Part shown: positions 27,277 through 46,775 of the stretch, piece after piece | Numbering within the stretch: the first letter of the stretch is position 1 | Layout of the letters: each line of letters opens with the position of its first letter | Assembly (NCBI GenBank): GCA_000182565.2 | Contig: KQ257469.1 | Source of the DNA: Spizellomyces punctatus DAOM BR117 | Taxonomy: Eukaryota | Strand: one strand, 5' to 3' | Length of the DNA: 64,000 nt | The notes under the pieces: generated by a model | Told to the model about the DNA's origin: nothing | The model's input: only the letters and a program-made list of their open reading frames with translations | Database searches by the model: none | Translations under genes and position numbers: made by a program

Positions 27277-28098
27277 ATGAATAGTATGGAGGAACCTGCG
27301 GAGAGCTCACATTTTATTACTGTCGTCTCGGAGGTTGTCACATCAGATGTCGATAGTAATACTGTCCCCCAAATGTTTCCAGTTCAGTACCATGCACGGG
27401 CAAATTGGATATGGTTAATTCAAGTACTTGTGGTCCTTCTCTGGTCGATATCACAAAAAAGGATATTTCCCGCTCCCCTCAGCGCACCCTACGTCCTTGC
27501 CTTGCGACAATTCCTCTATCTGAATCTTGTCTCACATGCCATCTTTTATGTCTGCGAGCTCCTTTTCACCTCAATAGTTGTTTCCCTCCCAGCCATGGCA
27601 GCACACCACGTTGCTTCAATCCTCCTCTTCTGGTTCATCTACCGGGAGCCTGCGTGCGTCTCCGTGTCATGTTTGCTGCCCTTTGTTTTGCATGCACTCT
27701 CGTGGATATGCGGAGATACCGGCCCAGGGAATACGCTCCTTGCCTTCTATAACCTTTGCTTTCTTGGGTGTTGTCTTGCATCGATCTACCGAAATCCGTC
27801 GGAGGGCCATATAACAGATCTAGTGCCGCTGACGGGTGTCCTCATTGTAGCCTGCAATGGAGTATCTTACTGTGTGCTGTAAGTTGGAGGTGCATGGTGT
27901 GTCCCACGTGAGCTCGCCTTCTAACCTACACACAGCCATGAAGGTGCATTGTGCTTGCCTATCCGTTTCGCCCATTTCCCCATTTTCCAGCGATCTCTAG
28001 AGATGTTCGTTCTAATCGGTGCGCTGACGTTGGCGGTACGGTGGTGTGGATCTCGGACTTCTGTAATGGGTGGCAGTAGCGTGAAAAAAGTTGGATAA
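27277..28098 (+). CDS. Polytopic membrane protein, TLC (TRAM/LAG1/CLN8)-like; 2 exons
   Basis: About 6-7 hydrophobic segments and an AHHVAS motif. An intron at ~27879-27935 leads to the last exon ending KKVG*. Confidence 0.6.
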
Positions 28099-28189
28099 GG
28101 TATAAAGATGCAACATAGGTAGGGTTGCGCTGAAATTACATCAATTATGTATTTCCGGCCAATATTCTCTGTTGTTCTTTATTTTACAT

Positions 28190-31100
28190 TCAAACTATCA
28201 AAGTAGACATTGCCAAGTCCATTCCAGTATTCGTAACCATAGCGGTTGTCACCTGGCCGTTCTGTCGTATATACACGATCGTGAGAGCCTCCCGCAAATT
28301 CATTGCCGGCCCACATCCTGCCTGAGTAAGGGTGCTTTTACACTGCAAAAGCAAATCCGTGTATCCATCACCATCCACATCTCCTTGTACTGATGCTCTC
28401 CATGTTTGCCCCGCATGGATTTCGAGTGATAGCTCTAGCAGTGTCACTGACGATGAAATGGAAGTCAAAGCTTGCTCTGGAACAAAAAGGGATGCCCTGT
28501 TCGGCACCGCAAGCCCCTGAATGCTGAATCGGCAAATGTTGGCGGTGCAAGCAAAGCCAAGTACACCTAATGAATCCCATACTCCCAATCCAACTGGGGT
28601 TCCCGAAGCAGAGAAAGTGTTTGCTTGGCAAGACTGGACGAACGGAAAATCTCGATGAGCAGTTTGGCGAAGTTCATTACCGTTCGTAGCGTACTTACTT
28701 GGTCGTAGTCATTGTCGGCCATAACGCAAACGGTGATTGAAGAGCCTCCATCAATGGGTCCGCCAGCCTTGGTTGCCCAAAAGGTATCTAAAATATCATT
28801 ACCATCTAGGTCCGCAAATCCGACCAAGGCTCGATCAGGGCAAATGCTTTGGTCTGGACCCTTTAAAGTTTGCAATTGGAGGCCAGGGCGATATACAATG
28901 GCGTACGCTCCAACCGAATCCTTTGTAATGTAGTCGAAAGTACCATCTTGGTTGTAGTCCCTGTAAATAGATAAATGAGGAGGTTATGTGATGCAGCAAT
29001 AGTATTCTAACTTACCCGACTGATGAGATAGTTTTGGAAGCAGCTATAGTTAACCACGTATTACTGGTACTAAAGGTAGACGACCAACTTGAATAAGTTG
29101 TTAACTGGTCGGTGGTGTTCGTCTTATATCCGAGTACGTCTGCGCGGCCATTTTGATCAAGATCCAAGAATGCGGGTGATACCCAGTTGTTGTACAGCGC
29201 ATACTGCCCAGGTTTCGCAACATCGAAATCGATTGTATGGAGTGCAGCGTCATATGTAGTTGGTACGATAGTCCACTGTGCGGAACCTTTAAAACGTGCA
29301 AAAATATAAGGGGTGACAACCGCAGCAACGAGGTCCTGATCGGGAAGCAACGTTGCAGTGACCACAGAGGAGCCGAACAACGTCGCCACGTCCGCAGACG
29401 GGGTCAGAGCCATAAAGAGGGCGCTGGTATCCAAGTACCTCGCGTATTTCCACCCAAGTGCCAGAACGAGGGTTGCAGGAGGGGATATGACCGTCGTGCT
29501 GTCATTACCAACGACACTGTACGTATATGTCGAGACTGGTAGGACAGTAATACCTAGATTGGTGGGTATATTTGTTGCCACCACTTGGAGAGTGGTGGTG
29601 GACTCGTCAAATCCGTCCACGGTAACGGTAGTAGAGCCAGCAGTTCGCGTTAAAACATAAGCGTCATAGCCAACCACGACCCGTGGGGTGGGAATAGATA
29701 CGGTTGCACTTAGCCATGCGTCGTTGGTTCCTTTAACAGTGACCCAAACGGGAACCGGAACTGTCATCCTGTCGGCTGGAATTGTTGTGGAGAGGATACT
29801 GCCATTTGATACTGACTTATATGGCATAATATCAATTGCTCCCTGCACTGATCCAATTGCCAGCTACCATCGAGATTCATTGTTATACAGGCGGCATTAT
29901 GACCCGAAGTGCTTATGAGCTTACCTCGTACTGATAAATACGTGATCGTCCTGGCACAAAACCACTCCATTGCACCACACGACCATAATTCGCGAGGGAA
30001 ACCTGAGCACCAGCTGCATTTGGCGGACTGGTATCAACAAGTATACTAGTAACGTCGATCGTTGAGAGTAGCGCGTTATTCACTGCCCTGACAGTGAGGT
30101 AGATCTCCAACAGACCCGATACATTGACGAGACTCGCTGTGACCTGGCTGTCTTGCGTAAAACTCCAACCCAGCAAATCACTACGATTTACGGCCGTCCC
30201 GAGCGCCCACTCGTAATACGCGATGTCGGATCCATCATCCATGGCCTCCCACGTAAGAGTAAGGTGCCCATCGCTGGTTGCTCCAACAGGTTGTCCAGCT
30301 CGCATGAACGTGAGGTTCCCAAGAACCGGCGGCGTCTGATCGATCGTTAAACCACGAGTCCAAAGTACCGAACCTAAGCCGGCCCGATTTACGGCTCGTA
30401 AAGCAATGTAATACGATGCCGGCGTCGTGAGAGGAGCTGGAGCAATAGATCCCGGGGTAGCTGCGGTTGGGACAGTCGCGTTCGCTGGTTTTATGCAAGT
30501 CATATTACTGCTACTTGGTACATAGCCATCATTGCAGACGCAATGGTAACTGCCGATGTCGTTTACACATGTCTGCAAAGAAGAATGGACCCATATTATT
30601 AAAGGATATAGATGTCAAAAGCTCTCATCAACTTACAGTGGTTCTGAAATCACAGCTGTTGATACCCTACGATAATGAAAGACGTGTTTCGTAAAACAAG
30701 TGCTATAATGTCTTACGAGAGCGTGACTGTCGCATACCTCAGCGCATTCATCAATGTCTACACATTCCAAACCACTACGCCGGAATCCATCGTTGCAGAC
30801 AGTGGTGTACGACTCTGTTGGAGACGTTAAACTCGATACGCATTTTCCATTAGCCGGGTTAGGACCAGTAGGTCCAGAACACCAGTCGATTCCAACACAA
30901 TACCCTCTCTTCGAGAACAAAGCGTTTGTGTAACACCATGGCCTGATGTCGTCTGCGTATGTGCACTCCGTGTAGAGTTTTCCTTGATAGTAGAATGGAA
31001 ACACACATGTTTCGCCGGTGACAGTTTTGCGAGGCGCACAATAATCTGTTCTGGATAACTGACTAGGAACGCTGCTGTTTGATACCAGCGGACACCATGG

Positions 31101-34100
31101 AATAGGCAACTCTGCCCGGAAGGTAGCAGCTCCAAGTGCATCAAGCCCGTAGATCGGGGCTTTAGTAATTTTGTCACGAGTAAAGCAGAGGGATCCTGAC
31201 GCCAACCGACTGTTGCTCATTAGCGTGGGCATGCAAACGCACCCAGCAGGTGCGGTTGTTGTTGCAGACGTATAAACGAAGAAGGGTAGATTGATCTCGG
31301 CACATCGGGATGCGCACACGTCCAGAGAAATATCCCGGTAAGATTTGGTTTGCGGGAAAGCTAACGTCGCTTGCGAAAGGATTGTTGTGTAATTATTCGT
31401 AGCTAGCGCAATATGAAGGACTTGCGAAAGGTCCCCGAACGACCAGCATCCTTGGAAACTGTACCCTGGAGCAGATGGAGCTACATCAGGCTTAACGCCA
31501 GGAGCGCATGACGAATAGGTTGTTCCATTGACCGTAAATGGGCCCAAGCAGGTCTCATTTAAGTTAATAGTCTGGCGCGGCAGCATTTGTCGTACAGCGG
31601 TCGCACAGGTCGGCCCACTCCAGTTCGGTGGGCAGGAACACATATTGGGCCCGATACACACACCCCCATTTTGACACGCTATTGAGCAGGTAAAGCCGGT
31701 AAGTCCAGATACGCTGAGTTGAACAGTCACTGCCTTTGCCGACAAAACCGCGATATAAACCTCTCCTTTCAGAGATGGGATAGAGATGGCGCACTGCAGA
31801 GACTGTGCCGGCATACACTTAGCAATCGCAACGGGGCTCGCTGTACACGAGGGGAAGGCAACTAGCCACATTCGAGACGGTTGCGATGCCGAACTTGATA
31901 AAACAAATGGTTCGCCCGTCGCCGTTATCTTGTACCAGCGGGCGAGACGAGGAGTGTTCACCATGCGAGTAGTTCGTGGGTCTTCGTCAATATCTTTTGA
32001 GGATATCGATGCGTTCAGTGGGGCTGATGAAGTAAGGACAGCTGCTCCAGCACACCCAGTTTTGGGGTCAGGCAGTACACACCCATCAGTACCGATGCCG
32101 GTACCAACGGTTCCTGGTGGACAACGACATTCATGGCCTCCGTAAGTATCCACGCACGTGGCATTACTATGGCAATTGTTGGAAGTCTGTCACATATACG
32201 AAGTTAGGAATGCAGCAAGTAAGGGGCTTCATCATCACAACTTACCATGCACTCGTTTACATTTACGCAAGTCCATTGATCCATAGCGGTAAACCCTGGG
32301 TTGCAGTTACATCTATAGCTTCCTGGAACATTCTCGCAACGGCCCGCCAAACCACATGGATTTGAGGCACACTCATCGATATCAATACAGCCGCTTTGCT
32401 CGAGCTCTCCGGTAGCAGAATAAGGATTGCCGGTATACCCAGGTGGGCATTCACAGAGATAGGATCCCGGAATGTTTCTACAAGTAGCACCTGTGGCACA
32501 CATAGACACATTGTAGGAAGCAGCAATACCACATTCATCTAAAAATCAGTCGAGGGAGAACGGTAAATTCGTTAATAACTGAAGTTTGACATTCATTTGC
32601 ACTGAGAGTCCGTACCAATATCTTCACAGTCGAACTGGTATCCACTGCCTAAAGGAAAGGAACTTTGGTTGAATATCTTGGATGATAAACTTTAGCCTTA
32701 ACAACCGTGTCGCATTACCTCCATAGCCAGGCTGACATGTGCAGATGTACTGTAAGTTATACCTATTTGCTACAGCAAGAGTCTGATTTGATACTGGAAA
32801 GTTGACATCTTCCCGCTTGGTACAACTCGCTAAAGGTGAGCAACCACCTTGCTCGGCGGATAAATCACACCAATTTCGCGAATATATGTATGACTCCAAT
32901 GTAATGTTTGTGAGCCTTCCAAGTCGGATTAACTCAGAGTCTGTGGACGTAAGTGGCTGTGACCATTGAGAAGGAACGCAGGGTACGTCCGACGTGGCGT
33001 CGTTGCAAGTTTGCGTCCAATTCTCCACATTAATACGAGTTAAGTTGAGGACATCGTACTTCTCAATAACCGTTGAGATTCCAATTTCGTAATAATCAAT
33101 TCCAGAATCAGGATCTAGGAAGGGATCGCCATGGTTGCATCCATAGCTGGCATTCGGTGGCCCAGGGAAGGTGGTGCTGGAAAACACCATCGATGCTGTA
33201 GATGCCAATTTACGGACCGCTAGACATAACGCAGGAAATTAGAATGATCAGCTCTCATCCTCGTTGTTTTGTAATATCACTGACTTACCCCATAACCGGA
33301 ACAACGGAGCCAGTTTCGGAAGACCTTGAATCCCTGCCGTTCCAACGAACAGGCCAGGAAGCTGGGAGGAGCCTACGACCAATCCTGCGTCGTCGGTGAC
33401 CGTTACCTGGGTTGTTCCTTCGCGAACAGTCACACTGTAGGTGAGATAAACTGAAGTCGGGTCCTGAGAGAAGTCCACCTCCGCCCCTCGTAAAGATTTA
33501 TCGCCCGGTTTTGCTGCCCACATGTACACTGATGGCTTATCCAAAGCCAGAATTTGGATTCCAATGGCATTATATGGCCAGCTGTTGTTGAAGTAATAAT
33601 TGCTTTGAGTTTCAAAGCTTCGCTCCACGACAGGAATATTACTATCTGTCAATATGATGCTGCTAGCAGCCCCGTAGGTTGGACTCGCTTTGAAGCGGAA
33701 GGAAAAGCTTCCACCGGAAATCGAAACGTTGGAAACTACTTCACATCCACGCGTGAGATGTTCATCAGCCGAGTCGGTTGCTGCGACTAGCGTAAGGCGA
33801 TTTGAAGCAAAGGTTGCACAGCTTGGGGAAAACACAATTCTCGCATCATCCAATCCAAAATCGGTCGTCAGACTTGACGAGATACTCCAACGAGCAGACG
33901 CTCCCGATGTAAAAGTGTCAACATTAGGTTGACATGGACTTTCACCAACGGATTCCGCCCAAGTGAGGGCCACAGAGTTGTTGCTGGCAGTATAGGCCAT
34001 ATTTACGGATGGGTCATACCCTTGTTTTACAGTTCCAAGAATGGGTGGTGTCACATCCACGTGCAGCGGAACACTCGCTGAATACGAAGTGAGACCTGCA

Positions 34101-37100
34101 TTGTTCACAGCTTTGATGAGAATTCGATGCGTACCACTGCAAAGGATGGACGATTAGTTTAAAACTATTCAGAGTTACTGCAGAAAATGCGGACCATTCA
34201 CACCTTTCTGTTAGTGGAGCGGCAATATCAATTGAACTAGTGGTGTTGAGATCACTTCCAACAGAGGAGAACGGGACGGTGAGGAGATCAGGATTGTCCA
34301 ATGCCATAGAGACGGGATCCTCTGCCGAATCACGTCGTCTCAACTGTCCGGTGCTGTTTTCAGCTGGTGGTTCCAGCATCACGGCGTACTGTATGTCTTG
34401 AATATCGCCTCCAAAATCCCCCAAGTTTATCTATCGTAAAGAGGTGTTAACAGAGAATACAACAAAATTCAGATGAACATGCATCGAGATTACCGTCATA
34501 CTTCCAGAAGCCGCCTGCCAGCTCTCTGTCGCATTCTCAGCTTGCCCGGAAAACGCAATTACTAAGGGCGCCGGCTGTGTGTTATTAACAATAAATCCTA
34601 GACTTTTAGTAATAGTGCCCTGAGCGTTCAGATCTGTCGCACGAACAAAAGCGTAATATTCGCTTCGATTGCCTCCGATTTCCGTGACGTTCAAAGACAA
34701 TCCCGTGAAGTTAAACATCACAGCATTAGGGTCCACATGAGTGAAATTCACAATGTAACTCTGGCTGTTGGATGAATCCGCGGAGCTTGATAGTGCGACA
34801 TCGATGGCGAGTGGTGACCAGACCGATGTGATACCCCGCCATTGAATATTCACTGTGTCTGTGGATACTTGAGATGTGGCAGTGGTTATGCCCAAGCCAT
34901 TGTCAATCCACACCTCTCCGACGGTTGGAGGATCTCTGGAGGCGATACTTGAGATGGAGTTGTCAAACAAAATTGCGGAACAGTAAGCTCACCTCAGTCC
35001 AATAACAAAACCAGGAGAAACACCAGTAACAATGTCACCAGTGCAAGAAGTCGCCTGTACAGTCACATAATATGTTGTGTATGGCTTCAATTCGGTAGAA
35101 ATCCACGCAGTAAAGTTTCGTGTGAGGCCTGCATCCGTCCAGATCAAAATGTTTGCAGCCCCGTCGCTTATTAAATAATCTGTTCCAACCGCATATCTAT
35201 AATTCACCACAAAACAGGTATCCGAGGAGAAGTCCTCCCAAGAAGCGGACACCGTATGGGGATCGTTCTGGAAAGACTGCTGAATCCCTGGCAGCGGGCC
35301 ATCCCAGACTTTCCCAGCTTTAGCAGGTGAATGGACAATCGTGACTGCATCGCTTACAGCCGGTACCGCGTTCGACATTCCGAAGCTATTGAAAGCCTTG
35401 ACTATGACAACGTAGCTTCTCATTGGGACGAGTCCGAGGTTTGCTGCTACGATTTCCGTCTCCGTAGTGGAGGTGACTGGCCATACAACTGCGTTCGTAA
35501 GATTATCTTTGATCCACCATTGATACTCCGCGATGGGGCACGGATGAGTGAACTTCCATGCCGCAGACAGGACGTTTCTGTCTTTTTGGAATCCACTGCT
35601 AGCACTTGTGGAGTACACCGATACGGGCATTGGACCATTGTCCACTACCCCCAGAGGTGACGACGTGGCCTGAGCAGAAAGTCCCGCTCCATTGACAGCC
35701 CGTACCACGATCACTATTTGACTTCCTGGTCTGGGAGCAACATCTAATTGTAGGGTTGCCGTTGTAGCAGTTCCAACGTCCTTCCACTTAAGCAAGAATG
35801 CCTGACCTTGGTACTCTTTCACGGCAACCCTATAGCGCGCAATGCCGCTCTCGGCATCAGTAAAGGCACCGTCCCACGACGCAACGATATTGTTCGTTCC
35901 TCGATGACAATCAATGACGTTTCGGGGTAGCGCCGATGCTGATGATGTAAAGTTTATCCCTTCGACCTCCGAAAGAAAAAGAATCTTGTCGTACTTGGTA
36001 TCTGGTGGTGTCCTATCAATCGAGAGAACGGTGTAGGCCGATGAAGACATTCCCACGCTGTTTGTACCAGTAACAGTCACGAAATACTGCGAGGATGGCG
36101 TTTCTAGGTAAACAAATGCAGGATCAAATACGTAAGAGTTTCCAACGACGGTCTTAGGAGTAAGAATTTCAACCCCGCCAGTTGTTGTGCCCAGAGACAC
36201 TGTGACATTAGCAACAGCACTTTCCGGGTCTACGAAAGCACTCCAAGAGCAGCTGAAAGGCAGTCGCGGAGTAACAATAGCTGAGGAGCACCCGAAGTCG
36301 GTGGGCGCAACCGGTGGGGTGGCGTCCACAACTAGATGGTTGCTGTAAACTGTTGAGGACGTGCCTGTGATACTGTCTACAGCGCTGCATTTGGCAAAAC
36401 TTGCTGTTCCGTATGGTATACTACTAATATTTGCTAGGAAGGCAACTGAATATTGCTCAGTTGCTGGAAACTGCGATACCGTGAGTGGAAAAACGTCGTC
36501 TGTGTCAAATCTCCCAATGGACACTTGAAGTGAGTCGAATCCTTCGCTTCCCAAGCCTGTGCTTGCTGCGCACGTAACCTTAATTTGGTTTACACTCGCA
36601 TTTGATACGTAGCTTGAGCCATCGGCCAGCTGGAGAGTGGGCTCTTTAAAACGGTATCAGAATGCTTCAGCATAACGGCGCTGACCCTATCCTTCAGTGT
36701 GCAGAAACTTACCAAAAGGAGCCTCATACGCGACCCTGAACCCAGCTGAAGTTGAGCTCACTTTTTCAGTAAAGGTGTCAGGGCCCGTCGTGCCAAATGT
36801 TCCGTAAACCGTAATAAAGTAGGTCACATTTGGCTGCAGTGCGCTCGATGGATAATTGATGAACCCGGAAGAGTTCTTGGAAGGATATACAAGGTACGCA
36901 GATGTTTCCTGAACAACGTCGGTGGAGTTGGGCGTCGTTCCCATACTCCACGTGTACAATGCTCCGGCAAAAAAATGCTTGAACCCCTGGAAGTTGATCA
37001 GTCGTAGTTAGTCTCTCCACTAACCCATAACAGTGAGCTCTCTTCCTTACATTGAAGGTAGCCGTTACTAAATCACGCTCAATTTGGATCCTTGTTTCGA

Positions 37101-40100
37101 CGTTTGGCATAAACCCATCCCAGACGGTTCCCGGTTTTGCGCCGGGGACAATCTTCACACACCCAGATTCATGCAAGACAGATTCTAAACCAGCAACATT
37201 TCGTGCGTATACTAAAAACCAAGTTAATTAAGCTTTCACTTGCTAACGTCATCCTTGAATTCATACCAGTCATGCAATATGTCTGGTTTGCTGCCAGATC
37301 CATTGGATAAGCTATGAATGTACTGGAGGGCTCAACAGCTATGAATCCATTTGTGTAATTGGTGGAGCCGGTCTCATCACTGAACGAAACGAAGATATTT
37401 GTGATAGGGACAATGGTTTTCTGAAATGGAGCAAAGATTGTGAGGGAATTCTAAAACTTTCAAGCAACCTTGTCCGATGCGCACCTGATAAGAGAACCAG
37501 CCTCGCAATGCGTCGTTATTGGTTGAGAAACGCAGCGAAGGTGTTCCCAAAGCAACAGACCCCACACCACTTGCGAGAAGTACCGGTGGTAATGTTGCAA
37601 TTGTAATTTCAAACCCGACTCTGGTCGAAAGACCAGCTCGGTTAACAGCGCTAACGAAGACGGTGTAGCTGTTGAACTCTTTCAATGGTGGGTTGGCAGT
37701 GATGGTACATCCTGAACTTGTAATATTAGCCGTAGCTCCCGGCACGGCAACCAAGTCCGGATCCAATATCCAGCAAGCAAGTGCATTACTTGCGAGACCT
37801 AAAATGCGGGTGAGTGTCCTATTGAAAATACACTTTGGCGCGAATCTCATTGCTGCCAGACCTGATTCGGGCTCGTCCCATTCCCAATCAATGGTAAAAG
37901 TCGCTGGTGTTTGAATGTACGTCGTTGTCCCATAGACGCTATTTCCTCGATAATTGAGGAACTTCAACAACGGTGGTGTCTCATCTGGGACGCGAATATT
38001 GAGGGAGAACAGCTTATGACATTACTGAATGGAATGTTGCACCTACCGACGGTGACATTTCCTGTTGTTGCAACAGCAGTATTGCGAGTTCCCGCAGCAT
38101 TGTATGCAGTAACCACTGCGTAAAACGTTTGCCCCTGGGATATTGGTGCACCGTACAGAACCGCGTTGGTTCGAGTCGGTAGGGCATAGTCCACGATAGT
38201 TTCGGGATAGAGGATAGCTCCTATGATGCATTATCAATTAGAAACACTGTGATGTTAAACACCCTTTAACAGACTACATGTTAATACCTGTGTTGCTATC
38301 CAATAGCTGGATTGTATACTTTAATAAGCCAGATTCGTCATCTGAACTAGAGGTCCAGTTCAAGGTGACAAATAACCGCTGATTTTGGAAAATGCCGTTT
38401 CCGCCCGTAAGTATCTTTGCTTCAAAGGGTGTTGGACCAGTGATATCGATGATTGCTGAGCGGATATTGAGAGATTTTAGGACGAAGTATCTCGAGAAGG
38501 GTACTCTATTATGAACTTACTTCCACGCGAACTGGCAACGGAGTACTTCGAATCAGGTCCATTATCATTCCACGCTCGTACGTTAGCAAATACGATCGAA
38601 TCTGCCAGCAGCGGTGAGGAGATCCCGTACTCAGTGTATTCATAATAACGTCGCTCACCTTGCGGAACAGTAACCTTCGTTACAGGAAGACAGGCTTGCG
38701 AATCCCATCTTCCAACCTCCGTCCAATCCATAATGTCTGTTTGCTCTGGTAGAGTTCCAAAGGACACGTCAATACGCCCGATTCCACTCACGGCAGACTG
38801 CGGTATCCTCTTTTAGTAAAAATACCGTGCAACAAGGTTGGATGCAACATAGACCTTACCACAAAGCTTGTCCATGAGCAACAGAGTGTCTGGTTGCTGT
38901 CAATGTAATCATCCTGCGTCCAAAGAGTAGCCCCATCAAAAACAGTTCCTGGGGTTGGGGGGTAGAAATCAACTGCACTAATATCCGTGAAACCAGTGTC
39001 AGTTAGCACGTCAGTGTGAAGAGAAATATGTATATGAAAGTACTTGCATAGGACGCTCGGTTGACAAAGCAAAGAAATTGCCAGCATTGTCGGCAATTTG
39101 AAGTTGTCCTACAAGACAATGTTGCACAATAAGCGCCTTGCCTTCAGCAATGTGATTACTTTCAAACCTATACCATAAAGCAATTTCCCGTTCAACTTTT
39201 CATCAACTGTAATTGTGTAGTTCTGAATGCCCGGGGTCGCACTGGGATCAAGTGTTATGTAACCAGTATATCTCGGAGTGTATCCTAAAAATCATTTGTG
39301 AGGCAAGCAAGTCGTTCAAAGGAGCAACATCATAATAACAGTACCATCACCCAGTCCAACGTTGATATACTTCACGCCGGACAAATTATCAGAGTAATTA
39401 AATGATAATACAATGTCTCCAAGTGAGCCAGGTTCGGTGCTGGGAGCGATGCTGATGCCACCGGTTGGAGGCGTCGCTGGCAAGGAGAGTGTCCCATCAG
39501 TTTGAGCTTGTCCAATTATTCAATGTCACCTGAATACATACCGTCAACAACGTATCCGTTTCTGCAGCGAAGGGTTTTCAAACCAACCCAGTTTGTTGCT
39601 TGAATGCAAATTGTGTGATTACCCTCTGGTAGCTCATATCCGCTCAGGGACATGGCGATATCCTGTAATCAAACGTCAAATGGGGTGTGCTTGATCCTTT
39701 GTATCGAATCTAACTTACGGCTCCTCCGGGACCCGGTACAATAAAGTTGGTCCACCCATTGTAAGGCATCCAGGAATCGACATCAACTGGTATCAGATCC
39801 GCATCTATGTCATTTGGCCCAATTGCGAAATTCCAAGCCGCAATATCCGTTTCATTGTCAATAAATCCATTGAAATTGAAGAAGACTGACTAATTGAGTC
39901 ATAAGAGATTCTCTGTAAAACTTCTTGTCATTTAGTTCCCCAATAGCACTAACAATCCCTACCGATTGTGCGTTTGTTGCTTCCCAGTCACGCCGAAACT
40001 TCTGTCCGAAATAAAGGCTCCCTAGGTCTGGAGGAGTCACATCCACCTACGAAAAGAACCAGTGAGTGGAAATGTACTTATCGGTGCACCGCATCGACGT

Positions 40101-43100
40101 AATGGACCGAACTATTTGTCTCTCACTTACCATGGTGCCTTTTGATTGAACTGACGAGACGTATCCCAGTGTATTTGTCGCCTGAATAGCCAGGTAATAT
40201 GTTTTTCCATGCTCAAGTGTCAAGCCGGGAAATGTGAGTCTCCCCATTGTAGCATTTGCATCTAACTTCATCCACGGAACCGTATCATTGAGGGCACCTT
40301 CCTGCTTGCTTGTGCCTACCGCACATAAAATTTCTCTGAGAGGAGTGGCATCTTTGATGCTGTAGGCAAACGACAATTTATCGACCAATGGCTGCAGTGC
40401 GGTACCATTCCGCTGAAGATCAACCTCGGTTGTGAAGGCTCGTAGATTTTTGCGTTGAACTACCCAAGTTTCATTTTCTCCGATGGAGAATTCGAACTCA
40501 GACGGCTGCGTCAGGTCAGTTTCCCAGATATTGATAATTGGGGGCGATAGATCCCATAAAACTTTGGTCGATGCTGTGGTTTCTAGTCCTTGCTGATTTT
40601 TGGCGGTGATAGTGACATACAAGTCAATCTCATCAAACCACTCTTTATCGGTAGGACCGGGGAATGTTAAACTCTCCCCTTGGTCTCTAGGGACTGTTGA
40701 GCGTGGAATGATGCTTGTATCTCCTGGTCCCCACCCCACGCCCACGCTAGGAAAACAAGCGTTTTAGCCTTTTCGCCCAAGTCACTGTGTGAACTTGCAA
40801 TTTATGACAAACCTAATTTCGGCAATTCCTGACTCTCCATCGTGTGCAGCAAAGCGAGTAAACAATAACGGGTTCACCGGGGTCAGACCAACTACCTGTT
40901 GCGCTAATAATTGGTCGATAATTGGTGGGGTTCTGTCAGCCAACGTTCCGCTCGCATCTGATATTGTGAGAGCTCCAGGTGCAGGACAGGTATCCAGCAC
41001 ACGAATCTTGATCGTAGATAGCCTAAACAATATGAATGTGAGATGCGTGGTTCGGGGGTCTAATCGTAAGCATCTGAAATCCTACGCGAATCTGACGATG
41101 GTGACCCTCCAGGTAATGTCGAAAAAGAAGAAGTCTATGGTTACTATGATAGCAATCTCGATGGCAAGTGGAACAATCTCCACATTAATCTATGTAAAAT
41201 TAAAACAATTAGCAGCTGATTGTCACAGAACAAGTTCAACCGGGCGGCCTTACATCGATACAAGTTCCAATTGGGAAGTTTGACAGCGGAAAGTGGACTG
41301 TTATCGGCACATGCGTGTCTGCAACAATCCCAGTAACCTGCAATCCAACGCTCGCGATAAAGATGTCAAGCGAAAGACTACCGGATACCGAAATCGCGAA
41401 AGCTGGAATAACGGTGGGTTCTAACGTCATTCCCATCAGACAGACGCGCATTCCCGCTTGTATCCCCAGAATAGCGTCAAAGTCCCTGATTTTCCGCGAA
41501 AAGGACACATTCGTTAGTAAAAATGCGTGTAAGGTAGTAACAAGAAAACAGATATTTCTACGCACAATTCAAACGTCACGGGTACCATGCCTCCAACAAG
41601 AATTGTTTTCTCCGCGTGGAAAATATTGATGCTCTTCCTGAATTCCGGGAGCATACCACCTGCGCAGAGCTCCTGAGCGTTCTCGAATTCATCGTCGATA
41701 CATACGTTCGGAACGTTCACCGGAAACCCGCTGAAGGACGCTCTTCGTGCAAGGGAAACTGCGTGGGAATCAGGTTCATCGAATTCCAGGGCTCTTCGTG
41801 CTTTTGAGCTCTTTTTAGGCTTTGTTTTAGATTTACCACTCTTGTCTGCCTCCTTTTTAGCATCGAGAGCATCCGCTAGATCCTGTTGGTTCAGAGCTTG
41901 CTTGCCTATGATGGGGGTCTGAGGGACATAGCTGCGCCCGAGAATCGTTAACAAATAATAGTTGGGGTTCGGATTGAACCCGGACAGAATGGTGGGAATC
42001 CGACGGGGCAGACTGAACAGTGCATAAGTAAATTGAGTACGAAGCGCAGCAACACATGGAGAAAGGTATACTTACTATTTTCCGGGATCTAGCCATACGT
42101 TAGGATCTCTCTTATCCTGAATACTCAGGTGGATCTCGGAACCTTTAGGTGCCGCAATGGAATCTCCTCTTTTGACCTTTGTTTTACCAACGACTACGTT
42201 GAGGTCGACTAAAGGAGTCACCCGATTGATTATAATATTGTAGTTGCTTAGACTATGGTAGTGCATTTTAAGAAACGAGTAAGTCAGCGGATAGCACAGA
42301 ATTACATATCGCTGTCAACCCACCTGCCGTCAGTTACAGAAAGAATAAGCGCCCCATCATCAGCCCTGCTGAGTGTCCCGTCAAGCGGAGCCACGATCTC
42401 TTCTCTTCCCTCCACATCTAGGAAACTGCCGTTGTACTTTTTATCCAACATGGCGCTGGGAAACGCCATCGGTGCACCGTTATTATCCGCGGCGACTCGA
42501 TTAGGGAACGGTTGGTCAAATTTGGGTCCGAACACGCTACCGAGGTACTTCTTGAGTTCTAGAAAAAGGCCATTCATATAAATCCCAAGTATTTAGGACG
42601 GAATGAACTGAGCAAAGTTACCATTGTGTGTAGCACTGAGCTTTCCCATAGTAAGCTTGAAGTTCCGATACGCCTCAGCAATATTCCTTTGAGCAGCTTG
42701 AATGCTTTCGCTTGTCGTGTTATATAATTGCACGCTGGGTTGGACAAAGTCGAGTAATATGGGCTTCGACGCAGCGAGCGCTAGAAGCTGATCCAGGAAC
42801 TCGTGTTCAACGTCAGGCAGCATTCCCTCCAAAGCTTCGACGGAAAGGAGCGATTTGAGTGTCTCGAGCACCTTTTCGACCTGCCCTAAACCGGACTGGA
42901 TGCCCTGTTGTTTGCGAAATAAATGTGAGTTCTTATCGAGCGTATGTGTAGCGAAAGAAGTGTTGATCAAACCTCAATTCCGTGGACGATCGTGTTGTCA
43001 GCTTGCGCGGGACAATTCAGCACATTGTCAACACCCGCAGAAACATCGCCAAATCCTTGTGCCACATTCGCCAAGACATCGTCAATCCCATCAACTACCT

Positions 43101-46100
43101 TGGAATTCAGCTGCTTAGCAGAAGCTTTCACTTGAGCTTCCAAATACCCAAAAAAGTTTATAATGTTGAGCATATCAGATTCATCCGCAGGATCGCTGGG
43201 TACCGTGACGTTATTCAACCCAAAAGAGAAATCGGCTAGGCCAAAGGCACCCTGCGACGGGAAATTCGCAATCAAATGTTCCATGGCCGTAAATTTGGAC
43301 ACCAGAACATCGAATGCGTTGAGGGCATCTTGATAAGTCTTTGTGAAAGGACTGGTGACCTTGTCAATACCTTAAAAAGCTCTTAGAGTTAGATCGTAGA
43401 GAGTGACCTACTAGAAATAGTACTCACCTCTGAGAAACGCAGATTTGATGTTCGCTAGATCGGATAACTTAAAATTCTTGATCATATCGAGATCATACCC
43501 GACTTTTGCATATAATTTTAGTTGAGCATCCTAAACCAAGACACTCAGCATTAAGACACGGGTCAAAGAGTTACTATCAAGAATACGTACAAAAATAGTA
43601 GCTTCGGTATATCCACCGATATCAAAATAAAGAAACGCCTGTGCGCTATTGTTAATGTCTATCGTCAATTGAGTTCGCAGAACGGATAGAAAGAGATTGA
43701 TTTTGTTTTTGAAATTGACCAAGGCTCGAACTCCAACCACGCTGGGTCCTGTCGAGGAATGACATCAGACATGCGATAGATGCTCGTTTCTGTCGACGAT
43801 GATAACTTGCCATATCTCTGTTCCCAAAAGTACTTTGGGGTTTCCATGTTTAACTCGATAGACGTAGAGGTGAGTGACATGGAAACCAACCCTCTGGCTC
43901 GTAAAGCGCGGCGAGACAGGCCCATGTCGGTAGTTCCATTCATGACTCTTTCAAACCTATCTTCGTCACTTTGAAGAATATGCTTCAGTTCTTCCGCGCC
44001 TTCAATGACTTCTTCAAACGATATGCTACGCTTGTGCTTCTTATATGCTGCATGTGCAGCGGAACGCACACCGTCATCTCCTTCCGTCGCGGCAAGTATG
44101 AGAATATCTTCGATATCCGATCCATGATAAGATCCGAGCGACCTTATTGCACTCGCTCGCACAATTTCTGGGAAATGATTCGAAGTTACTTCGCTTCGCT
44201 TCAGATGGGAAAGGAGCACTGGGATAGATTTATTGTGTGCGGCATTTCCCAACGCTAGGAGAAGAGTGCCGTGGTAAGCAGCAGCATGGCTAACGTCGAT
44301 AACTTCGTCGTCAAAATCTCTCTTTGACTTTGCCCGGTCCGAGTTTAGTACATGATATTGACTATGATCGACTTCCGCGACCATTTCATGGAGGGTTGAA
44401 ACCAATTGTTCTCCTAGAGCGGTATCATTCTTCTCAAAGCTTTTCTGCGCCATCAGTCCAAGCGCTAGAGCAGCGTGTTGCTGAACATTTTCAGTTTCCT
44501 CTTGATAGCTTCCGTTGAATGTTGAATACTTTGTAAGCTCTTCAACTATCTCTGCAACTACCTTGGTAGGCTTGGCGCAGCGGGAAATCCCTTGGAGCGC
44601 AGTCGCCAGCGTCTCTTCAGGAACGTCACGACGAGACCGAGCCCCAAAAGTCTCTGCAAGAATTGTCTCGCCAACATTGGTGAAGGCTGTACATACTTCC
44701 GCTGCAAGATCCACAGCAACATATGCGACATCAGTGTGGACATACTGGGACAAAAGCTTCTGAACAGCAATGGCAGCTTGATTCTGATCGAGGCTTAGCA
44801 GTGCTTTACGTGCTCGTGCAAAGCATTGCGCTTTTTCGCCGCGTGTATGGTGTTTACGACTGTGTAGAACAGAAGAGTCATAGCACTCCATGCTCTCAGC
44901 CACGATGTTCATAACGGTTTCGAGAGGCACGGTTTTGGCGGCAATTTCGGTGGACAAGGATATCCTGACAATGTTTGCTGGCGTCGCGATAGTATGTGCA
45001 TCCTTAGTGGACCTTGTATGTAAGAGTTTGAGTGCAGTAGAGCCGGTAGCACTCATCAATAGATGCGCATCTTCAGTGCTGCGTTTCTCGACACCTGATG
45101 AGAAAAAACTTAGCGAACTACACGGGAGGACATATTCATGAAAATGCCCTAACCTCCAAAGTTGCCTCGCACACCAGCGCTTCCTTCGGACGAGACATGG
45201 TCTGTAATGACAACGCTGTGAATCTCATGCGTCTCTGGATGCTTCTCTATGATTTTTTCGTGATCATGCGTAAAGCGATCTTGCTCTGCTGTCTCTGCGT
45301 CATCGGCCTCGTCTCGCCGCGTTAACATCCGCTTGGTGAACCTTAGGTTGCTGGTGGCTGTGCTGGTGCCAACAGAGTACGCAGCATCATGACGCCCGCT
45401 CATGTCTGTCTCTGTAGTGTTGAAGTCGGCAGATCTTAATTTCTTCTCTTCATCGTATAATTTAGCTGAAAATAGGTTTGCGATGCTATTTGAAATACGA
45501 AATTGAAGTCGCGCTTCGATAGATTTCCAAACTGAACTTTGTAGGCACTTGTATGCACTTACGCCTTTTTGATGTTTAAGACCCCGCGTAACTCATCCGG
45601 GTCACTGAAAACTTCCTCCACGATGCCTGAATCGGACACGGCAAATCCAAACCAGTGCAAATTGAAATCATAATCCGTCGGTGTTTCTGAGCGCTTGATA
45701 CCTCCCTCTGGCAGTGGAGCAGTTACGATTATGCGGGGATGGCCAATGAAGACGAATTGGCATAGGGTGCGGTTGGCTTCGTCAGTATCATAAGGTTTGA
45801 TTGTGAATTTGGCATCAAGCTTCATTTCGGCATTGCTATCCAAAATTTTGAAGTTACAGTTAACGGGGAGGAAACCCTATCTACTATGTCGATAATGAAT
45901 ATAGACTGGTGGACTCACCCATTCTTATGTGCCGGTTTAACTGATAGTTCTGGACCCGAATTCAATATCGTCTTGCTCATATCAGATATGGATTCCACTT
46001 GAGTGGAAATAGAGTACTGATAACTCTTTCCAATCTGGAAATGGGCTGCATAGACATGGCTAGCAGAACAGGCCCAAAATGCGAGCAACAATAACAACTT

Positions 46101-46166
46101 GATGACGGGACGTTGAGAAATGATGATCGGCCTCTTTCGAGGCTCTCTCGTCTGCGTCGAGCACAT
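28190..46166 (-). CDS. Giant secreted multidomain protein A: signal peptide, vitellogenin/large-lipid-transfer-like N-terminus, many FN3-like repeats, ConA-like domain, Ca-EGF repeats, FN2 and WSC domains, C-terminal FG-GAP/VCBS repeats
   Basis: Collinear minus-strand exons over 18 kb. LLT-like: [31 protein letters not shown]3-like: repeated D-x-E-S-G-I and DxTPP. EGF: DIDEC...C.N..GSY.C.C. FN2: [20 protein letters not shown]...PWC...[35 protein letters not shown]. No C-terminal TM segment. Confidence 0.8.
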
Positions 46167-46775
46167 TTCTCAAAGCTTTGAGTAATGCGCCCGATCTAGG
46201 TATGAGCCTTTCTGGAGCTACGATTAAGACTGGAGTAGAGATCACTGGCGTGTAAAAGATATGGGGAAACTCGAGGTTATTGGAAAGCGCGTCTGCCATG
46301 GAATCGCGTCCAATGCACTGAACACACGAACACTCTCCTTGCATCCCTCATCCCGCGGAATTTCGAACTTAACTCATGGATTCGTCACACTGTCTCCCAA
46401 AAGGAGGTCCATATGGATATCCTGAATTAAGAATTTTTTTCCCTGAATTCCCACCCAATATTCACTAAGCCTTCAAACCAGCATTAGACATCCTTCAAAT
46501 GCAAAATGCACATTGGCTCCCAACTTACATTTCATTGTTCATTGTTAAACATCGTTAACTTAGAATCGAACAATACGATCTATCTGAATCGTGCTATTTT
46601 CAGATAAATATGGAGAAAATTGGGGGATGGACTTTCTGCAGACCTCCAAATCCGGTCTATCGGTTCTGGACCTGCTGCGAGCTTAAATACCTTAGGTAGG
46701 GGGGTAAACCTTCATCGTCCACATAGAGTTCTTTCTGAAAGTAGACGTTGAGTTACCCCCCAGGACTAATCTAAT

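What the first reader, a model, noticed from the sequence alone, without database searches (positions are those of the whole stretch)
28190..46166. Animal-like giant lipid-transfer/adhesion protein in a fungal-type genome
Seen: an 18-kb gene. Its N-terminal region (46166 to ~41200) shows vitellogenin/MTP/apolipophorin-like hallmarks: F..GK.Y.Y, LNIKK, ETDMSG, and a helical region with LLALGNA. It continues into FN3-like D.ESGI repeats, a ConA-like segment, Ca-EGF repeats, FN2, WSC and FG-GAP repeats. Established: large lipid transfer proteins and FN2 are classically described from animals. Inference: an ancient opisthokont extracellular module lost from Dikarya, or an intron-acquiring horizontal transfer; possibly a zoospore coat, adhesive or lipid carrier.
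Basis: partly seen in the sequence, partly recalled or inferred. Interest (0 to 1): 0.8.

Follow-up and report, generated by a model that had tools for sequence, protein, structure and literature searches.

The report
Giant chytrid protein with vitellogenin-like head
A soil chytrid fungus encodes a 5053-residue secreted protein whose front end is predicted to fold like the yolk and lipoprotein carriers of animals, followed by a long chain of adhesion-type modules, so this fold is not confined to animals.

Summary
The 18-kb gene is real. It is SPPG_08216 of the chytrid Spizellomyces punctatus: minus strand, 46166 to 28190, 44 exons, 5053 aa, annotated "uncharacterized".

An AlphaFold2 model of aa 1-1163 gives a beta-barrel, a helical solenoid and a beta-sheet. 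Its best solved-structure matches are large lipid transfer proteins (LLTPs): lipovitellin, MTP, honeybee vitellogenin and apoB-100 (Foldseek E 4e-14 to 1e-7; VIA Z 15-20). By sequence the link is weak: Pfam Vitellogenin_N scores 16 bits against a cut-off of 24, and a family HMM finds no LLTP among PDB sequences.

A conserved long-stranded beta domain follows, and its best match is the MTP A-sheet (Z 9.3, marginal).

Downstream lie at least 17 FN3-like repeats, cbEGF modules, one FN2 and four FG-GAP-like loops. WSC and ConA-like segments got no support from sequence searches, and their folds were not tested.

Relatives are 12 of 1.84 billion representatives, and every named one is a chytrid. 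Best reading: a secreted giant surface or matrix protein with a divergent LLTP head. Lipid binding is inferred, and the origin is unresolved.

The parts
28190..46166 (-). Whole coding region of SPPG_08216 (P0001, 5053 aa), 44 exons, stop codon at 28190-28192
   Evidence: P0001 maps in 44 exact blocks, 5050 of 5053 residues. Own splice model. 100% match. Names.
46047..46166 (-). aa 1-40: basic N-region plus hydrophobic core ([14 protein letters not shown]). Probable signal peptide.
   Evidence: Read from the sequence. pLDDT is below 50 for aa 1-39. The relative P0004 has a classical leucine-rich N-terminus. No signal-peptide predictor was run.
44958..46043 (-). aa 42-330: LLTP-type N-terminal beta-barrel (spans introns 1-3)
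   Evidence: Strands 47-329 in the model. apoB-100 beta-barrel 9bd8_A: Z 19.9, rmsd 5.2, 322 aligned. Relatives P0004 and P0007 hit Vitellogenin_N profile positions 89-166 at aa 136-214, below threshold.
43893..44924 (-). aa 342-685: helical solenoid of the LLTP module (HEAT-like)
   Evidence: Helices 342-685. Pfam HEAT_2 28.4 bits, and Vitellogenin_N profile 388-521 at 15.6 bits. The LLTP rows span the barrel and the helices together.
43492..43886 (-). aa 688-778: beta-sheet after the helices (C-sheet-like)
   Evidence: Strands 688-778. The lipovitellin alignment runs from model 42 to 759, chain 17 to 887.
42515..43464 (-). aa 788-1041: four long helices. An insertion not seen in the solved LLTPs matched here.
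   Evidence: Helices 788-834, 860-914, 920-952 and 980-1036. It matches only designed or generic helical bundles (Z 13-14). With the next domain it resembles EnvC 8tzl_E (Foldseek E 1.2e-3, prob 1.00, TM 0.21).
42078..42466 (-). aa 1058-1163: LytM/peptidase-M23-like barrel, probably non-catalytic
   Evidence: LytM 2b0p_A and 4zyb_A: Z 9.7, rmsd 3.5, 103 aligned of 129-133. Foldseek 4zyb_A: E 2.4e-3, prob 1.00, TM(target) 0.53. Pfam Peptidase_M23 in relative P0008: 17.6 bits against 28.7. The family alignment shows no conserved His/Asp at the expected metal sites (motif positions recalled).
41679..42011 (-). aa 1164-1275: low-confidence, Lys/Ser-rich linker
   Evidence: pLDDT below 50 for model-2 residues 138-255. 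Sequence.
40968..41660 (-). aa 1282-1443: strongly conserved domain of very long beta-hairpins. Candidate LLTP A-sheet.
   Evidence: Strands of 15-22 residues, pLDDT about 60-75. MTP 6i7s: Foldseek E 8.8e-4, prob 1.00, 163 columns. VIA Z 9.3, rmsd 5.2, 157 aligned, model 260-421 to MTP 722-886. Many invariant columns in the family. The ESM Atlas gave no named look-alike.
34073..40940 (-). aa 1453-3290: array of FN3-like repeats
   Evidence: The first repeat has an FN3 fold: neogenin 7ne1_B, Z 10.5, rmsd 2.5, 97 aligned. Pfam fn3 42.6 bits on exon 34989-36656. An iterated HMM finds 13 copies in this stretch, out of 17 in the protein.
Identity not established.
   Evidence: No Pfam hit at E<=5. 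0 PDB sequence hits at E<=10. Not folded.
32079..32869 (-). aa 3669-3863: cluster of EGF / calcium-binding EGF modules
   Evidence: EGF_CA 55.3 bits with 2 stretches, cEGF, EGF_3. The family profile hits NELL2 at 4e-26, plus uromodulin, Notch and fibrillin.
Cys-containing, identity not established.
   Evidence: No WSC hit in Pfam at E<=5. No WSC chain in the PDB sequence search; best hit 0.19, unrelated. Not folded.
30897..31007 (-). aa 4221-4257: fibronectin type II module
   Evidence: Pfam fn2 34.6 bits against 22.2, profile 1-42 of 42; 35.4 bits in P0014. Fibronectin FN2 chains hit by the family profile at 0.0013-0.013.
30495..30881 (-). aa 4263-4346: further cbEGF modules (spans two introns)
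   Evidence: EGF_CA 28.5 bits on 29913-30614 and cEGF on 30633-32189. Best EGF_CA stretch of P0014 is at aa 4103-4145, which equals P0001 aa 4304-4346.
29699..30530 (-). aa 4335-4591: three more FN3-like repeats
   Evidence: Iterated repeat HMM: hits at aa 4335-4390, 4426-4492 and 4520-4591.
28193..29674 (-). aa 4600-5053: C-terminal region with four FG-GAP/VCBS-like calcium loops. No hydrophobic anchor is evident.
   Evidence: FG-GAP 20.9 bits against 22.1, and FG-GAP_3 16.9. FG-GAP_3 20.9 in P0014. Relative P0010: FG-GAP 22.7 bits. Loops listed. The hydropathy scan finds no C-terminal membrane segment.
28152..28152 (-). Probable polyadenylation site, 38 nt past the stop codon
   Evidence: Loose poly-T ends at 28152 in 4 RNA reads of run X8. 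The read pile (depth about 16) is confined to 27900-28520.

Best explanation
This is one genuine gene for a secreted, roughly 550-kDa modular extracellular protein of a chytrid.

Shown by predicted fold:
- The first ~780 residues form a very divergent member of the large-lipid-transfer-protein fold: N-terminal beta-barrel, helical solenoid, C-sheet.
- The module is interrupted by a lineage-specific insertion. This is a four-helix stretch, a LytM/M23-type barrel that has lost the usual metal ligands, and a Lys-rich flexible linker.
- A conserved sheet of very long hairpins follows. Its best match is the lipid-binding A-sheet of MTP.

Inferred:
- The C-sheet and the A-like sheet together enclose a hydrophobic cavity that holds lipid or another apolar ligand, as in vitellogenin, MTP and apoB.
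- The LytM-like barrel acts as a binding module, not as a peptidase.
- The ~16 FN3-like domains form a long stalk.
- The distal cbEGF, FN2, FN3-like and FG-GAP-like modules give calcium-dependent attachment to the cell surface, wall or substrate.
- The protein therefore works as a surface or matrix adhesin, or tether, that carries a ligand-binding LLTP head.

The family is old within chytrids and has expanded there.
For: Gene:
- 44 exact exon blocks.
- One intron (34936-34992) is confirmed by a spliced RNA contig, and there is a poly(A) signature at 28152.
- Independently annotated full-length relatives of 5133 aa (Phlyctochytrium arcticum) and 5027-5053 aa (four Geranomyces variabilis assemblies) align along the whole length.

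LLTP head (model mean pLDDT 69, with most 10-residue blocks of the barrel and helices at 74-92):
- Foldseek: the 11 best PDB matches are all LLTPs. These are 1lsh 3.7e-14, 6i7s 1.2e-13, 9ens 2.3e-11, and apoB-100 from 2.7e-11 to 1e-7. The next match is 9.4e-4 at prob 0.38.
- VIA second look: six LLTP chains lead with Z 17.1-19.9 and 322-532 aligned residues spanning model 37-759.
- The Foldseek-independent scan of 48,161 chains puts lipovitellin, apoB and bee vitellogenin at ranks 1-3 and MTP at rank 7.

Sequence hints:
- Collinear sub-threshold Vitellogenin_N hits on the barrel (relatives P0004, P0007) and on the helices (window exon).
- The unnamed fragment P0012 passes the cut-off (25.3 against 24).
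- The ESM Atlas nearest clusters for P0004 aa 1-800 are vitellogenins (0.90, 192 of 256 features).

Other parts:
- Insert and A-like sheet.
- Stalk and distal modules.
- Secretion: hydrophobic N-terminus, and no internal or C-terminal membrane helix apart from a beta-strand stretch at aa 1395.
Against: Sequence evidence for LLTP membership is weak.
- Pfam Vitellogenin_N is below its cut-off in the window protein (16 bits against 24).
- A profile of five family N-termini found no LLTP among 177,635 PDB sequences at E<=10. It found only HEAT-like designed repeats at 0.0016.

Structural caveats.
- Global TM-scores to LLTPs are low (0.19-0.30) and rmsd values are high (8-23 A).
- HEAT-like designs reach Z 14-16 on the helices alone.
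- Both models rest on only 11 sequences. pTM is 0.38 and 0.28.
- The A-sheet match is marginal (Z 9.3, rank 32), from a domain with pLDDT about 60-75. It has no support from the ESM Atlas.
- The two sheets were never modelled in one piece, so a closed cavity is not shown.

No lipid, localisation or expression-stage data exist here. RNA coverage outside the 3' end is sparse, so a single full-length transcript is not demonstrated.
Confidence: 0.72

Rival explanations
1. The head keeps the LLTP fold but no longer carries lipid. With its LytM-like insert it serves as a recognition or binding module for cell-wall material (for example bacterial peptidoglycan or glucan). This would resemble the pattern-recognition roles reported for some animal vitellogenins and lipophorins. 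The whole protein would then be a capture or adhesion device for microbes or substrate.
For: There is a LytM fold without conserved metal ligands, as in non-catalytic LytM domains such as EnvC. The insertion sits where the solved LLTPs matched here run on from C-sheet to A-sheet. The adhesion-type distal modules point the same way. The binding of microbial wall components by animal vitellogenins is recalled and appears only in the abstract starts listed.
Against: The most conserved part of the N-terminal half is the A-sheet-like domain, which argues that the sheet pair still matters. No binding data exist. The metal-site positions of LytM were assigned from recalled motifs.
Confidence: 0.3
2. 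The N-terminal likeness is convergent or generic: a beta-barrel placed next to HEAT-like repeats, not homologous to animal LLTPs.
For: No significant sequence link to solved LLTPs. Pfam is below threshold. HEAT-like designs score Z 14-16 on aa 337-712. Bacterial HEAT_2 clusters also carry partial Vitellogenin_N matches.
Against: Only LLTPs match the barrel, helices and following sheet together and in the same order, starting at the mature N-terminus (model 37-42 to chain 17-41). The apoB barrel alone gives Z 19.9 at rmsd 5.2. Sub-threshold Pfam hits fall collinearly on both the barrel and the helices in different family members. The ESM Atlas points to vitellogenins.
Confidence: 0.08
3. The 18-kb model is a chimera: two or more neighbouring genes (for example an LLTP-like gene and an FN3/EGF adhesin gene) merged by the annotator.
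For: RNA reads laid here are too sparse to bridge the gene. A shorter annotated isoform, P0014, starts at Met202. The S. sp. 'palustris' model is visibly over-extended at its 3' end.
Against: The same head-to-tail architecture and length recur in independently annotated genomes of three genera. All 43 introns are short. The exons chain without a stop and without an intergenic-sized gap. The only poly(A) signature seen lies after the final stop.
Confidence: 0.05
4. The gene, or its LLTP/EGF/FN2 parts, reached chytrids by recent horizontal transfer from an animal.
For: LLTP, FN2 and cbEGF are best known from animals (recalled; the abstract start of PMC1783640 in the listing speaks of LLTPs 'in animals'). 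No relatives were found in other fungi.
Against: Identity to animal LLTPs is only 10-14% in structural alignments. There are 43 introns and an ordinary local GC of 0.45-0.50. At least ten 50%-identity clusters of relatives exist in chytrids, with paralogues at 26-29% identity. The phmmer search of 1.84 billion representatives returned no animal protein at E<=0.001.
Confidence: 0.04

Closest known systems
Vitellogenin / lipovitellin (PDB 1LSH; honeybee vitellogenin 9ENR/9ENS)
   Same: Secreted. The N-terminal beta-barrel, helical solenoid and following beta-sheet come in the same order from the mature N-terminus (Z 17.7-19.9, 500-532 aligned residues).
   Different: Identity is 14%. Pfam Vitellogenin_N is below the cut-off. 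A helical + LytM-like + Lys-rich insertion precedes the A-like sheet. Pfam found no von Willebrand D domain. About 3600 further residues of FN3-like, EGF, FN2 and FG-GAP-like modules follow. The host is a fungus.
Microsomal triglyceride transfer protein large subunit (PDB 6I7S, 8EOJ)
   Same: Barrel + helices match (Foldseek 1.2e-13; Z 15.1-17.1). The conserved domain at aa 1282-1443 has as its best match the MTP C-terminal sheet, residues 722-886.
   Different: MTP is an ~890-residue ER-lumenal subunit paired with PDI (recalled). Here the module heads a 5053-residue multidomain protein, and the match of the second sheet is marginal (Z 9.3).
Apolipoprotein B-100 N-terminal region (PDB 9BD1, 9BD8, 9E9R)
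   Same: This is the best-fitting barrel (Z 19.9, rmsd 5.2, 322 aligned). Both are giant secreted proteins.
   Different: The rest of apoB is an amphipathic belt around a lipid particle (recalled). Here the rest is a string of globular adhesion-type domains.
EnvC / LytM-domain proteins (PDB 8TZL chain E; LytM 4ZYB, 2B0P; lysostaphin 4LXC)
   Same: Long helices are followed by an M23-type barrel. As in EnvC, the usual metal-binding residues are not conserved (EnvC property recalled).
   Different: Those are bacterial cell-wall proteins. Here the unit is embedded inside a eukaryotic LLTP module. The global fit to EnvC is poor (TM 0.21).
Animal matrix and surface proteins built from cbEGF, FN2, FN3 and FG-GAP modules (NELL, fibrillin, Notch, fibronectin, integrin alpha)
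   Same: cbEGF runs match NELL2, uromodulin, Notch and fibrillin (4e-26 to 1e-9). The FN2 module matches the full Pfam profile. FN3 fold. FG-GAP-like calcium loops.
   Different: This combination and order of modules was found only in the chytrid relatives. No transmembrane segment or integrin-type tail is present.

Membership tests
Large lipid transfer protein superfamily (vitellogenin / MTP / apoB / apolipophorin) | N-terminal beta-barrel starting at the mature N-terminus | tested here: met
   Predicted strands at aa 47-329. apoB barrel 9bd8_A: Z 19.9, rmsd 5.2, 322 aligned. LLTP alignments start at model 37-42 against chain 17-41. This rests on a predicted structure.
Large lipid transfer protein superfamily (vitellogenin / MTP / apoB / apolipophorin) | Helical solenoid directly after the barrel, then the C-sheet | tested here: met
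   Helices 342-685 and strands 688-778. Lipovitellin aligns over model 42-759, 532 residues, Z 19.9.
Large lipid transfer protein superfamily (vitellogenin / MTP / apoB / apolipophorin) | Second (A) sheet that closes the lipid cavity with the C-sheet | tested here: inconclusive
   The domain at aa 1282-1443 matches MTP 722-886 with Z 9.3, rmsd 5.2, 157 aligned, and Foldseek 8.8e-4. Model confidence is only 60-75. It was modelled apart from the C-sheet. The Atlas gave no named look-alike.
Large lipid transfer protein superfamily (vitellogenin / MTP / apoB / apolipophorin) | Significant match to Pfam Vitellogenin_N (PF01347) | tested here: not met
   15.6-16.2 bits against a cut-off of 24 on the window's exon. 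Relatives score 15.1 and 19.7 bits. Only the unnamed 374-aa fragment P0012 passes (25.3 bits). A family HMM finds no LLTP among PDB sequences at E<=10.
Large lipid transfer protein superfamily (vitellogenin / MTP / apoB / apolipophorin) | Binds and carries lipid | not testable with these tools
   Needs purified protein and lipid analysis.
Peptidase M23 / LytM domain | M23 barrel fold | tested here: met
   LytM 2b0p_A and 4zyb_A: Z 9.7, rmsd 3.5, 103 of 129-133 residues. Lysostaphin: Z 9.6. Foldseek prob 1.00, TM(target) 0.53-0.55. The Pfam hit is sub-threshold and only in relative P0008.
Peptidase M23 / LytM domain | Zinc ligands (H-x3-D and H-x-H motifs; recalled) | tested here: not met
   In the family alignment the expected first position is Tyr. 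The last motif reads IH(L/V)SI in four rows and has no His in the other rows that cover it. Assignment of columns is by eye from recalled motifs, so this is provisional.
Fibronectin type III | FN3 sandwich fold and Pfam fn3 match | tested here: met
   Pfam fn3 42.6 bits against 25. The first repeat matches neogenin, DCC and fibronectin FN3 with Z 9.9-10.5 and rmsd 2.1-2.5. 17 repeat copies by iterated HMM.
Calcium-binding EGF (EGF_CA) | Pfam EGF_CA above the cut-off, in tandem | tested here: met
   55.3 bits on exon 32204-32545. 74 bits in 4 stretches in P0014. NELL2, Notch and fibrillin hits.
Fibronectin type II | Full-length Pfam fn2 match with the four cysteines | tested here: met
   34.6 bits against 22.2, profile 1-42 of 42. 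Cysteines at aa 4221, 4235, 4245 and 4257.
FG-GAP / VCBS repeat | Pfam FG-GAP above the cut-off; repeated calcium loops | tested here: inconclusive
   20.9 bits against 22.1 here, and 22.7 in relative P0010. Four D-x-D/N-x-D/N-G loops. A propeller fold was not modelled.
WSC domain | Pfam WSC match or WSC fold | tested here: inconclusive
   No Pfam hit at E<=5. No WSC chain in the PDB sequence search. Fold not modelled.
Concanavalin A-like lectin/glucanase | Pfam match (Laminin_G and related) or jelly-roll fold | tested here: inconclusive
   No Pfam hit at E<=5. 0 PDB sequence hits at E<=10. Fold not modelled.

The most novel reading that the evidence does not exclude
The chytrid family is a vertically inherited, pre-metazoan branch of the large lipid transfer proteins. 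If so, the barrel-solenoid-sheet lipid carrier was already present in the opisthokont ancestor and was lost from most fungi. In chytrids it survives as the ligand-loading head of a giant surface adhesin. There it is uniquely split by a LytM-type insertion that couples lipid or apolar-ligand capture to binding of wall material.
Probability: 0.25. Interest if true: 0.8.

Novelty: new variant of a known kind. Interest (0 to 1): 0.62.

Why it matters
Large lipid transfer proteins (vitellogenin, apoB, MTP, apolipophorin) are treated as an animal invention. Their origin is an open question.

A fungal family with the same three-part head would push the fold outside animals. It is too divergent for Pfam but clear at the fold level. 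It also offers an outgroup for reconstructing how the lipid cavity arose.

The architecture is unusual in two ways. An LLTP module is interrupted by a bacterial-type LytM barrel. It is then fused to about 3600 residues of FN3, cbEGF, FN2 and FG-GAP-like modules, which are usually associated with animal extracellular matrix.

S. punctatus can be grown and, as far as I recall, genetically transformed. The role of such a protein at the zoospore or sporangium surface is therefore testable.

If the head turns out not to bind lipid, the finding is still a documented case of LLTP-fold reuse as a recognition module.

Tried and rejected
- The search for homologous proteins, three searches, none informative. 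The 519-aa exon with 'longer', the family alignment A4 with 'near', and P0001 region 1276-1450 with 'shorter' all returned nothing. They did not return even known family members of the allowed lengths. I read these as lack of sensitivity or crowding, not as absence.
- Family profile A3 against PDB sequences. It was swamped by EGF matches because the long rows became profile positions. I repeated it with the N-terminal-only alignment A4. That found no LLTP, only HEAT-like designs.
- ESM Atlas on the A-sheet-like domain, using P0005 aa 955-1124. Only unnamed clusters at 0.85-0.86, so no lead.
- PDB sequence searches for the WSC-like and ConA-like segments. Nothing relevant.
- Literature, search listings only:
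  - 'large lipid transfer protein' + fungi + vitellogenin: 10 papers, all on animals or unrelated.
  - Spizellomyces + vitellogenin: 0 papers.
  - 'large lipid transfer' + non-metazoan + vitellogenin: 0 papers.
  - LLTP / apolipophorin / unicellular / origin: 12 of 39 listed, none on non-animal LLTPs.
  - Vitellogenin_N / PF01347: 25 of 48 listed, all on animals.
  No paper was opened and supplements were not seen. A mention of fungal LLTP-like proteins in unopened or unsearched papers is possible.
- No whole genome is held for this window, so paralogues elsewhere in the genome could not be counted.
- An HMM of the family head against all ORFs of the window hit only this gene's own exons. The neighbouring FN3-repeat gene shows no such head within the window.
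- RNA runs. X9 laid nothing. X2 consists of unspliced contigs, presumably DNA. X8 covers mainly the 3' end. Transcript continuity therefore could not be tested.
- Earlier-findings look-ups returned nothing.

Full report
**What is there.**
The window is eukaryotic DNA with an even GC of 0.45-0.50. On the minus strand between 46166 and 28190, many open frames follow one another, separated by short gaps.

A splice-chaining script (GT..AG introns, no in-frame stop) linked them into one reading frame of about 5100 codons. A full HMMER scan of 1.84 billion representative proteins with the largest exon (519 aa, 43665-45224) returned a 100% identical protein of 5053 aa, P0001. Its sources name it XP_016604351.1 / SPPG_08216, 'uncharacterized protein' of Spizellomyces punctatus DAOM BR117, a chytrid of the order Spizellomycetales.

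P0001 maps back onto the window in 44 exact blocks, 5050 of 5053 residues. The other three are split codons. It runs from the ATG at 46166 to the last codon at 28193, followed by the stop. The coordinates of the finding are therefore right.

An annotated shorter isoform, P0014 (4852 aa), is P0001 from Met202 on. It would lack the signal peptide and part of the barrel.

**Is it one gene?**
The RNA evidence I could lay is thin.
- A 3'-biased RNA run of the same species label piles up only at 27900-28520. It has poly-T loose ends at 28152, which indicates a poly(A) site 38 nt past the stop on the minus strand.
- A root metatranscriptome holds four near-identical contigs. One carries a joint that removes 34936-34992 (CT..AC, which is GT..AG on the minus strand), exactly one of the modelled introns. 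Another contig (45874-46108) runs 45 nt into intron 1, so it is unspliced.
- None of this bridges the gene.

The stronger argument is comparative. Independently annotated proteins of 5133 aa (Phlyctochytrium arcticum) and of 5027-5053 aa (four assemblies of Geranomyces variabilis) align with P0001 from end to end. I put the chimera reading at about 5%.

**The N-terminal head.**
Pfam gives only a sub-threshold Vitellogenin_N hit on the helical exon (15.6-16.2 bits, cut-off 24, profile 388-521), plus HEAT_2. Relatives add collinear sub-threshold hits on the barrel part of the profile: P0004 and P0007 at aa 136-214 against profile 89-166. One unnamed 374-aa metagenomic fragment passes the cut-off.

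A profile of five family N-termini found no LLTP among PDB sequences at E<=10. By sequence alone the claim would therefore fail.

I then folded aa 1-1163 of P0001 with an alignment of ten relatives. Mean pLDDT was 69.1, pTM was 0.38, and most blocks of the barrel and helices scored 74-92. The model has these elements:
- a beta-barrel (aa 47-329);
- a helical solenoid (aa 342-685);
- a beta-sheet (aa 688-778);
- four very long helices (aa 788-1041);
- a small beta domain (aa 1071-1151).

The fold searches gave the following.
- Foldseek against the PDB: 12 matches at E<=0.001, and the best 11 are all large lipid transfer proteins. These are lipovitellin 1LSH (3.7e-14), MTP 6I7S (1.2e-13), honeybee vitellogenin 9ENS/9ENR (2e-11 to 8e-11), MTP 8EOJ (7.9e-10) and five apoB-100 entries (2.7e-11 to 1e-7). 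The twelfth is an unrelated IFT-A chain at 9.4e-4 with probability 0.38.
- VIA re-alignment: six LLTP chains lead with Z 17.1-19.9 and 322-532 aligned residues spanning model 37-759. HEAT-like designs follow at Z 16 or below and cover only aa 337-712.
- The Foldseek-independent scan of 48,161 representative chains ranks lipovitellin, apoB and bee vitellogenin first to third, and MTP seventh.
- The ESM Atlas, asked with relative P0004 aa 1-800, also points to vitellogenin clusters (0.90, 192 of 256 features).

There are caveats. Global TM-scores are low (0.19-0.30), because domain orientations differ and the model is long. The alignment is shallow. Helical repeats alone can give Z near 14. Taken together I put the LLTP-fold reading at about 0.9. 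I count it as a divergent member by fold, not by Pfam's criterion.

After the C-sheet the chain does not continue into the second sheet, as it does in the solved LLTPs matched here.

First come four long helices and a barrel. Together these weakly resemble EnvC, a bacterial coiled-coil + LytM protein (8TZL chain E: E 1.2e-3, probability 1.00, but TM 0.21).

A second model used the S. sp. 'palustris' orthologue P0013 aa 1065-1608, which is 94% identical to P0001 there. Mean pLDDT was 60.1. It confirms the M23/LytM fold of P0001 aa 1058-1163: LytM Z 9.7, rmsd 3.5, 103 of 129-133 residues aligned, and lysostaphin Z 9.6. Foldseek gave probability 1.00.

In the family alignment the positions where I expect the zinc ligands are not conserved. 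The H-x3-D and H-x-H motifs are recalled, not taken from a call. The domain is therefore probably a binding module rather than a peptidase.

A Lys/Ser-rich stretch of low confidence follows (aa 1164-1275). After it comes the most conserved part of the whole N-terminal half (many invariant columns). This is a sheet of hairpins with strands of 15-22 residues (aa 1282-1443).

For that sheet, MTP is the only specific solved match. Foldseek gives E 8.8e-4, probability 1.00, 163 columns. VIA gives Z 9.3, rmsd 5.2, 157 residues, aligned to MTP 722-886, which from memory is the lipid-binding C-terminal sheet. This is marginal, and the ESM Atlas gave no named look-alike.

I read it as a probable A-sheet. 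On that reading the LLTP module is complete but split by an insertion. I did not model both sheets together, so a closed cavity is an inference.

**The rest of the protein.**
- The repeat that begins at aa 1453 has an FN3 fold (neogenin, DCC and fibronectin: Z 9.9-10.5, rmsd 2.1-2.5). Pfam fn3 scores 42.6 bits on exon 34989-36656.
- An iterated HMM seeded with the first repeat finds 17 copies in P0001 between aa 1479 and 4591.
- cbEGF modules are clear.
- One FN2 module matches the whole Pfam profile (34.6 bits).
- The C-terminal 450 residues hold four FG-GAP-like calcium loops. Pfam is just under its cut-off here and just over in relative P0010.
- A hydropathy scan shows no membrane anchor. 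The only strongly hydrophobic stretch (aa 1395) lies in predicted strands of the A-like sheet.
- The 'WSC' and 'ConA-like' segments found no support in Pfam at E<=5 or in PDB sequence searches.

**Relatives.**
Of 1.84 billion representatives, 12 scored E<=0.001, 11 scored E<=1e-10 and 4 scored E<=1e-30.

The ten best are all chytrids:
- S. punctatus;
- P. arcticum, filed under Chytridiales in the NCBI taxonomy;
- G. variabilis and G. michiganensis, both Spizellomycetales (for the former).

The other two are unnamed fragments. Several Geranomyces clusters are only 26-29% identical to P0001 over the head, so the family is old and has duplicated. No animal protein was reached by phmmer.

This does not decide between ancient inheritance and an old transfer. 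It does argue against a recent one.

**How it most likely works.**
Shown: a secretory-type N-terminus, an LLTP-fold head with a LytM-like insert, an FN3-like array and distal cbEGF/FN2/FG-GAP-like modules, all in one open reading frame.

Inferred: the head holds lipid or another apolar ligand between two sheets. The LytM-like barrel binds rather than cleaves. The FN3 array acts as a stalk. The distal modules mediate calcium-dependent attachment. The protein would then be a surface or matrix adhesin, or tether, with a ligand-binding head.

I give the architecture about 0.9, lipid binding about 0.4, and the rival 'recognition module for wall material' about 0.3.

**Novelty.**
My five literature searches (listings and abstract starts only) found nothing on LLTP-like proteins in fungi or in Spizellomyces. 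The public record calls the protein uncharacterized.

I rate it a new variant of a known kind. It has an LLTP fold outside animals, a unique insertion, and a unique fusion to adhesion modules.

Noticed in passing
window 54156-60945 (+ strand): A second large gene, or gene part, lies on the opposite strand to SPPG_08216. Its open frames resemble the FN3-like repeat region of the Geranomyces paralogues P0008 and P0009 (blastx down to 8e-52) and, more weakly, P0001. Pfam fn3 scores 25.7 bits on 60424-60945. The family-head HMM finds no LLTP-like head for it within the window.
   Followed up: partly
window 46770-47240 (+ strand): An open frame has a Met followed by a hydrophobic, signal-peptide-like stretch. 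It starts about 610 bp upstream of, and divergent from, the ATG of SPPG_08216. This suggests a shared bidirectional promoter region. Whether it belongs to the FN3-repeat gene further right is unknown.
   Followed up: no
window 26313-26750 (- strand): This stretch matches residues 5040-5142 of P0013, the 5161-aa model of Spizellomyces sp. 'palustris' (51% identity, 3e-28). That part of P0013 lies beyond the end of P0001. The 'palustris' model therefore probably runs on into the downstream gene.
   Followed up: partly
window 45560-46166 (first two coding exons): The annotated isoform P0014 is exactly P0001 from Met202 on. It would lack the signal peptide and about half of the beta-barrel. Whether this reflects a real internal start is unknown.
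   Followed up: partly
window 45874-46108: An RNA-library contig from a root metatranscriptome (run X1, one differing letter) reads 45 nt into modelled intron 1 without splicing. This could be intron retention, pre-mRNA or contaminating DNA. The same run holds a correctly spliced contig at 34935/34993.
   Followed up: no
ESM Atlas result for P0004 aa 1-800: Bacterial clusters (mostly Myxococcota and Pseudomonadota) of HEAT_2 proteins appear among the look-alikes. In these clusters 40-70% of members also carry a Pfam Vitellogenin_N match. This is probably the helical part only, but it is worth a look for the deep origin of the LLTP solenoid.
   Followed up: no
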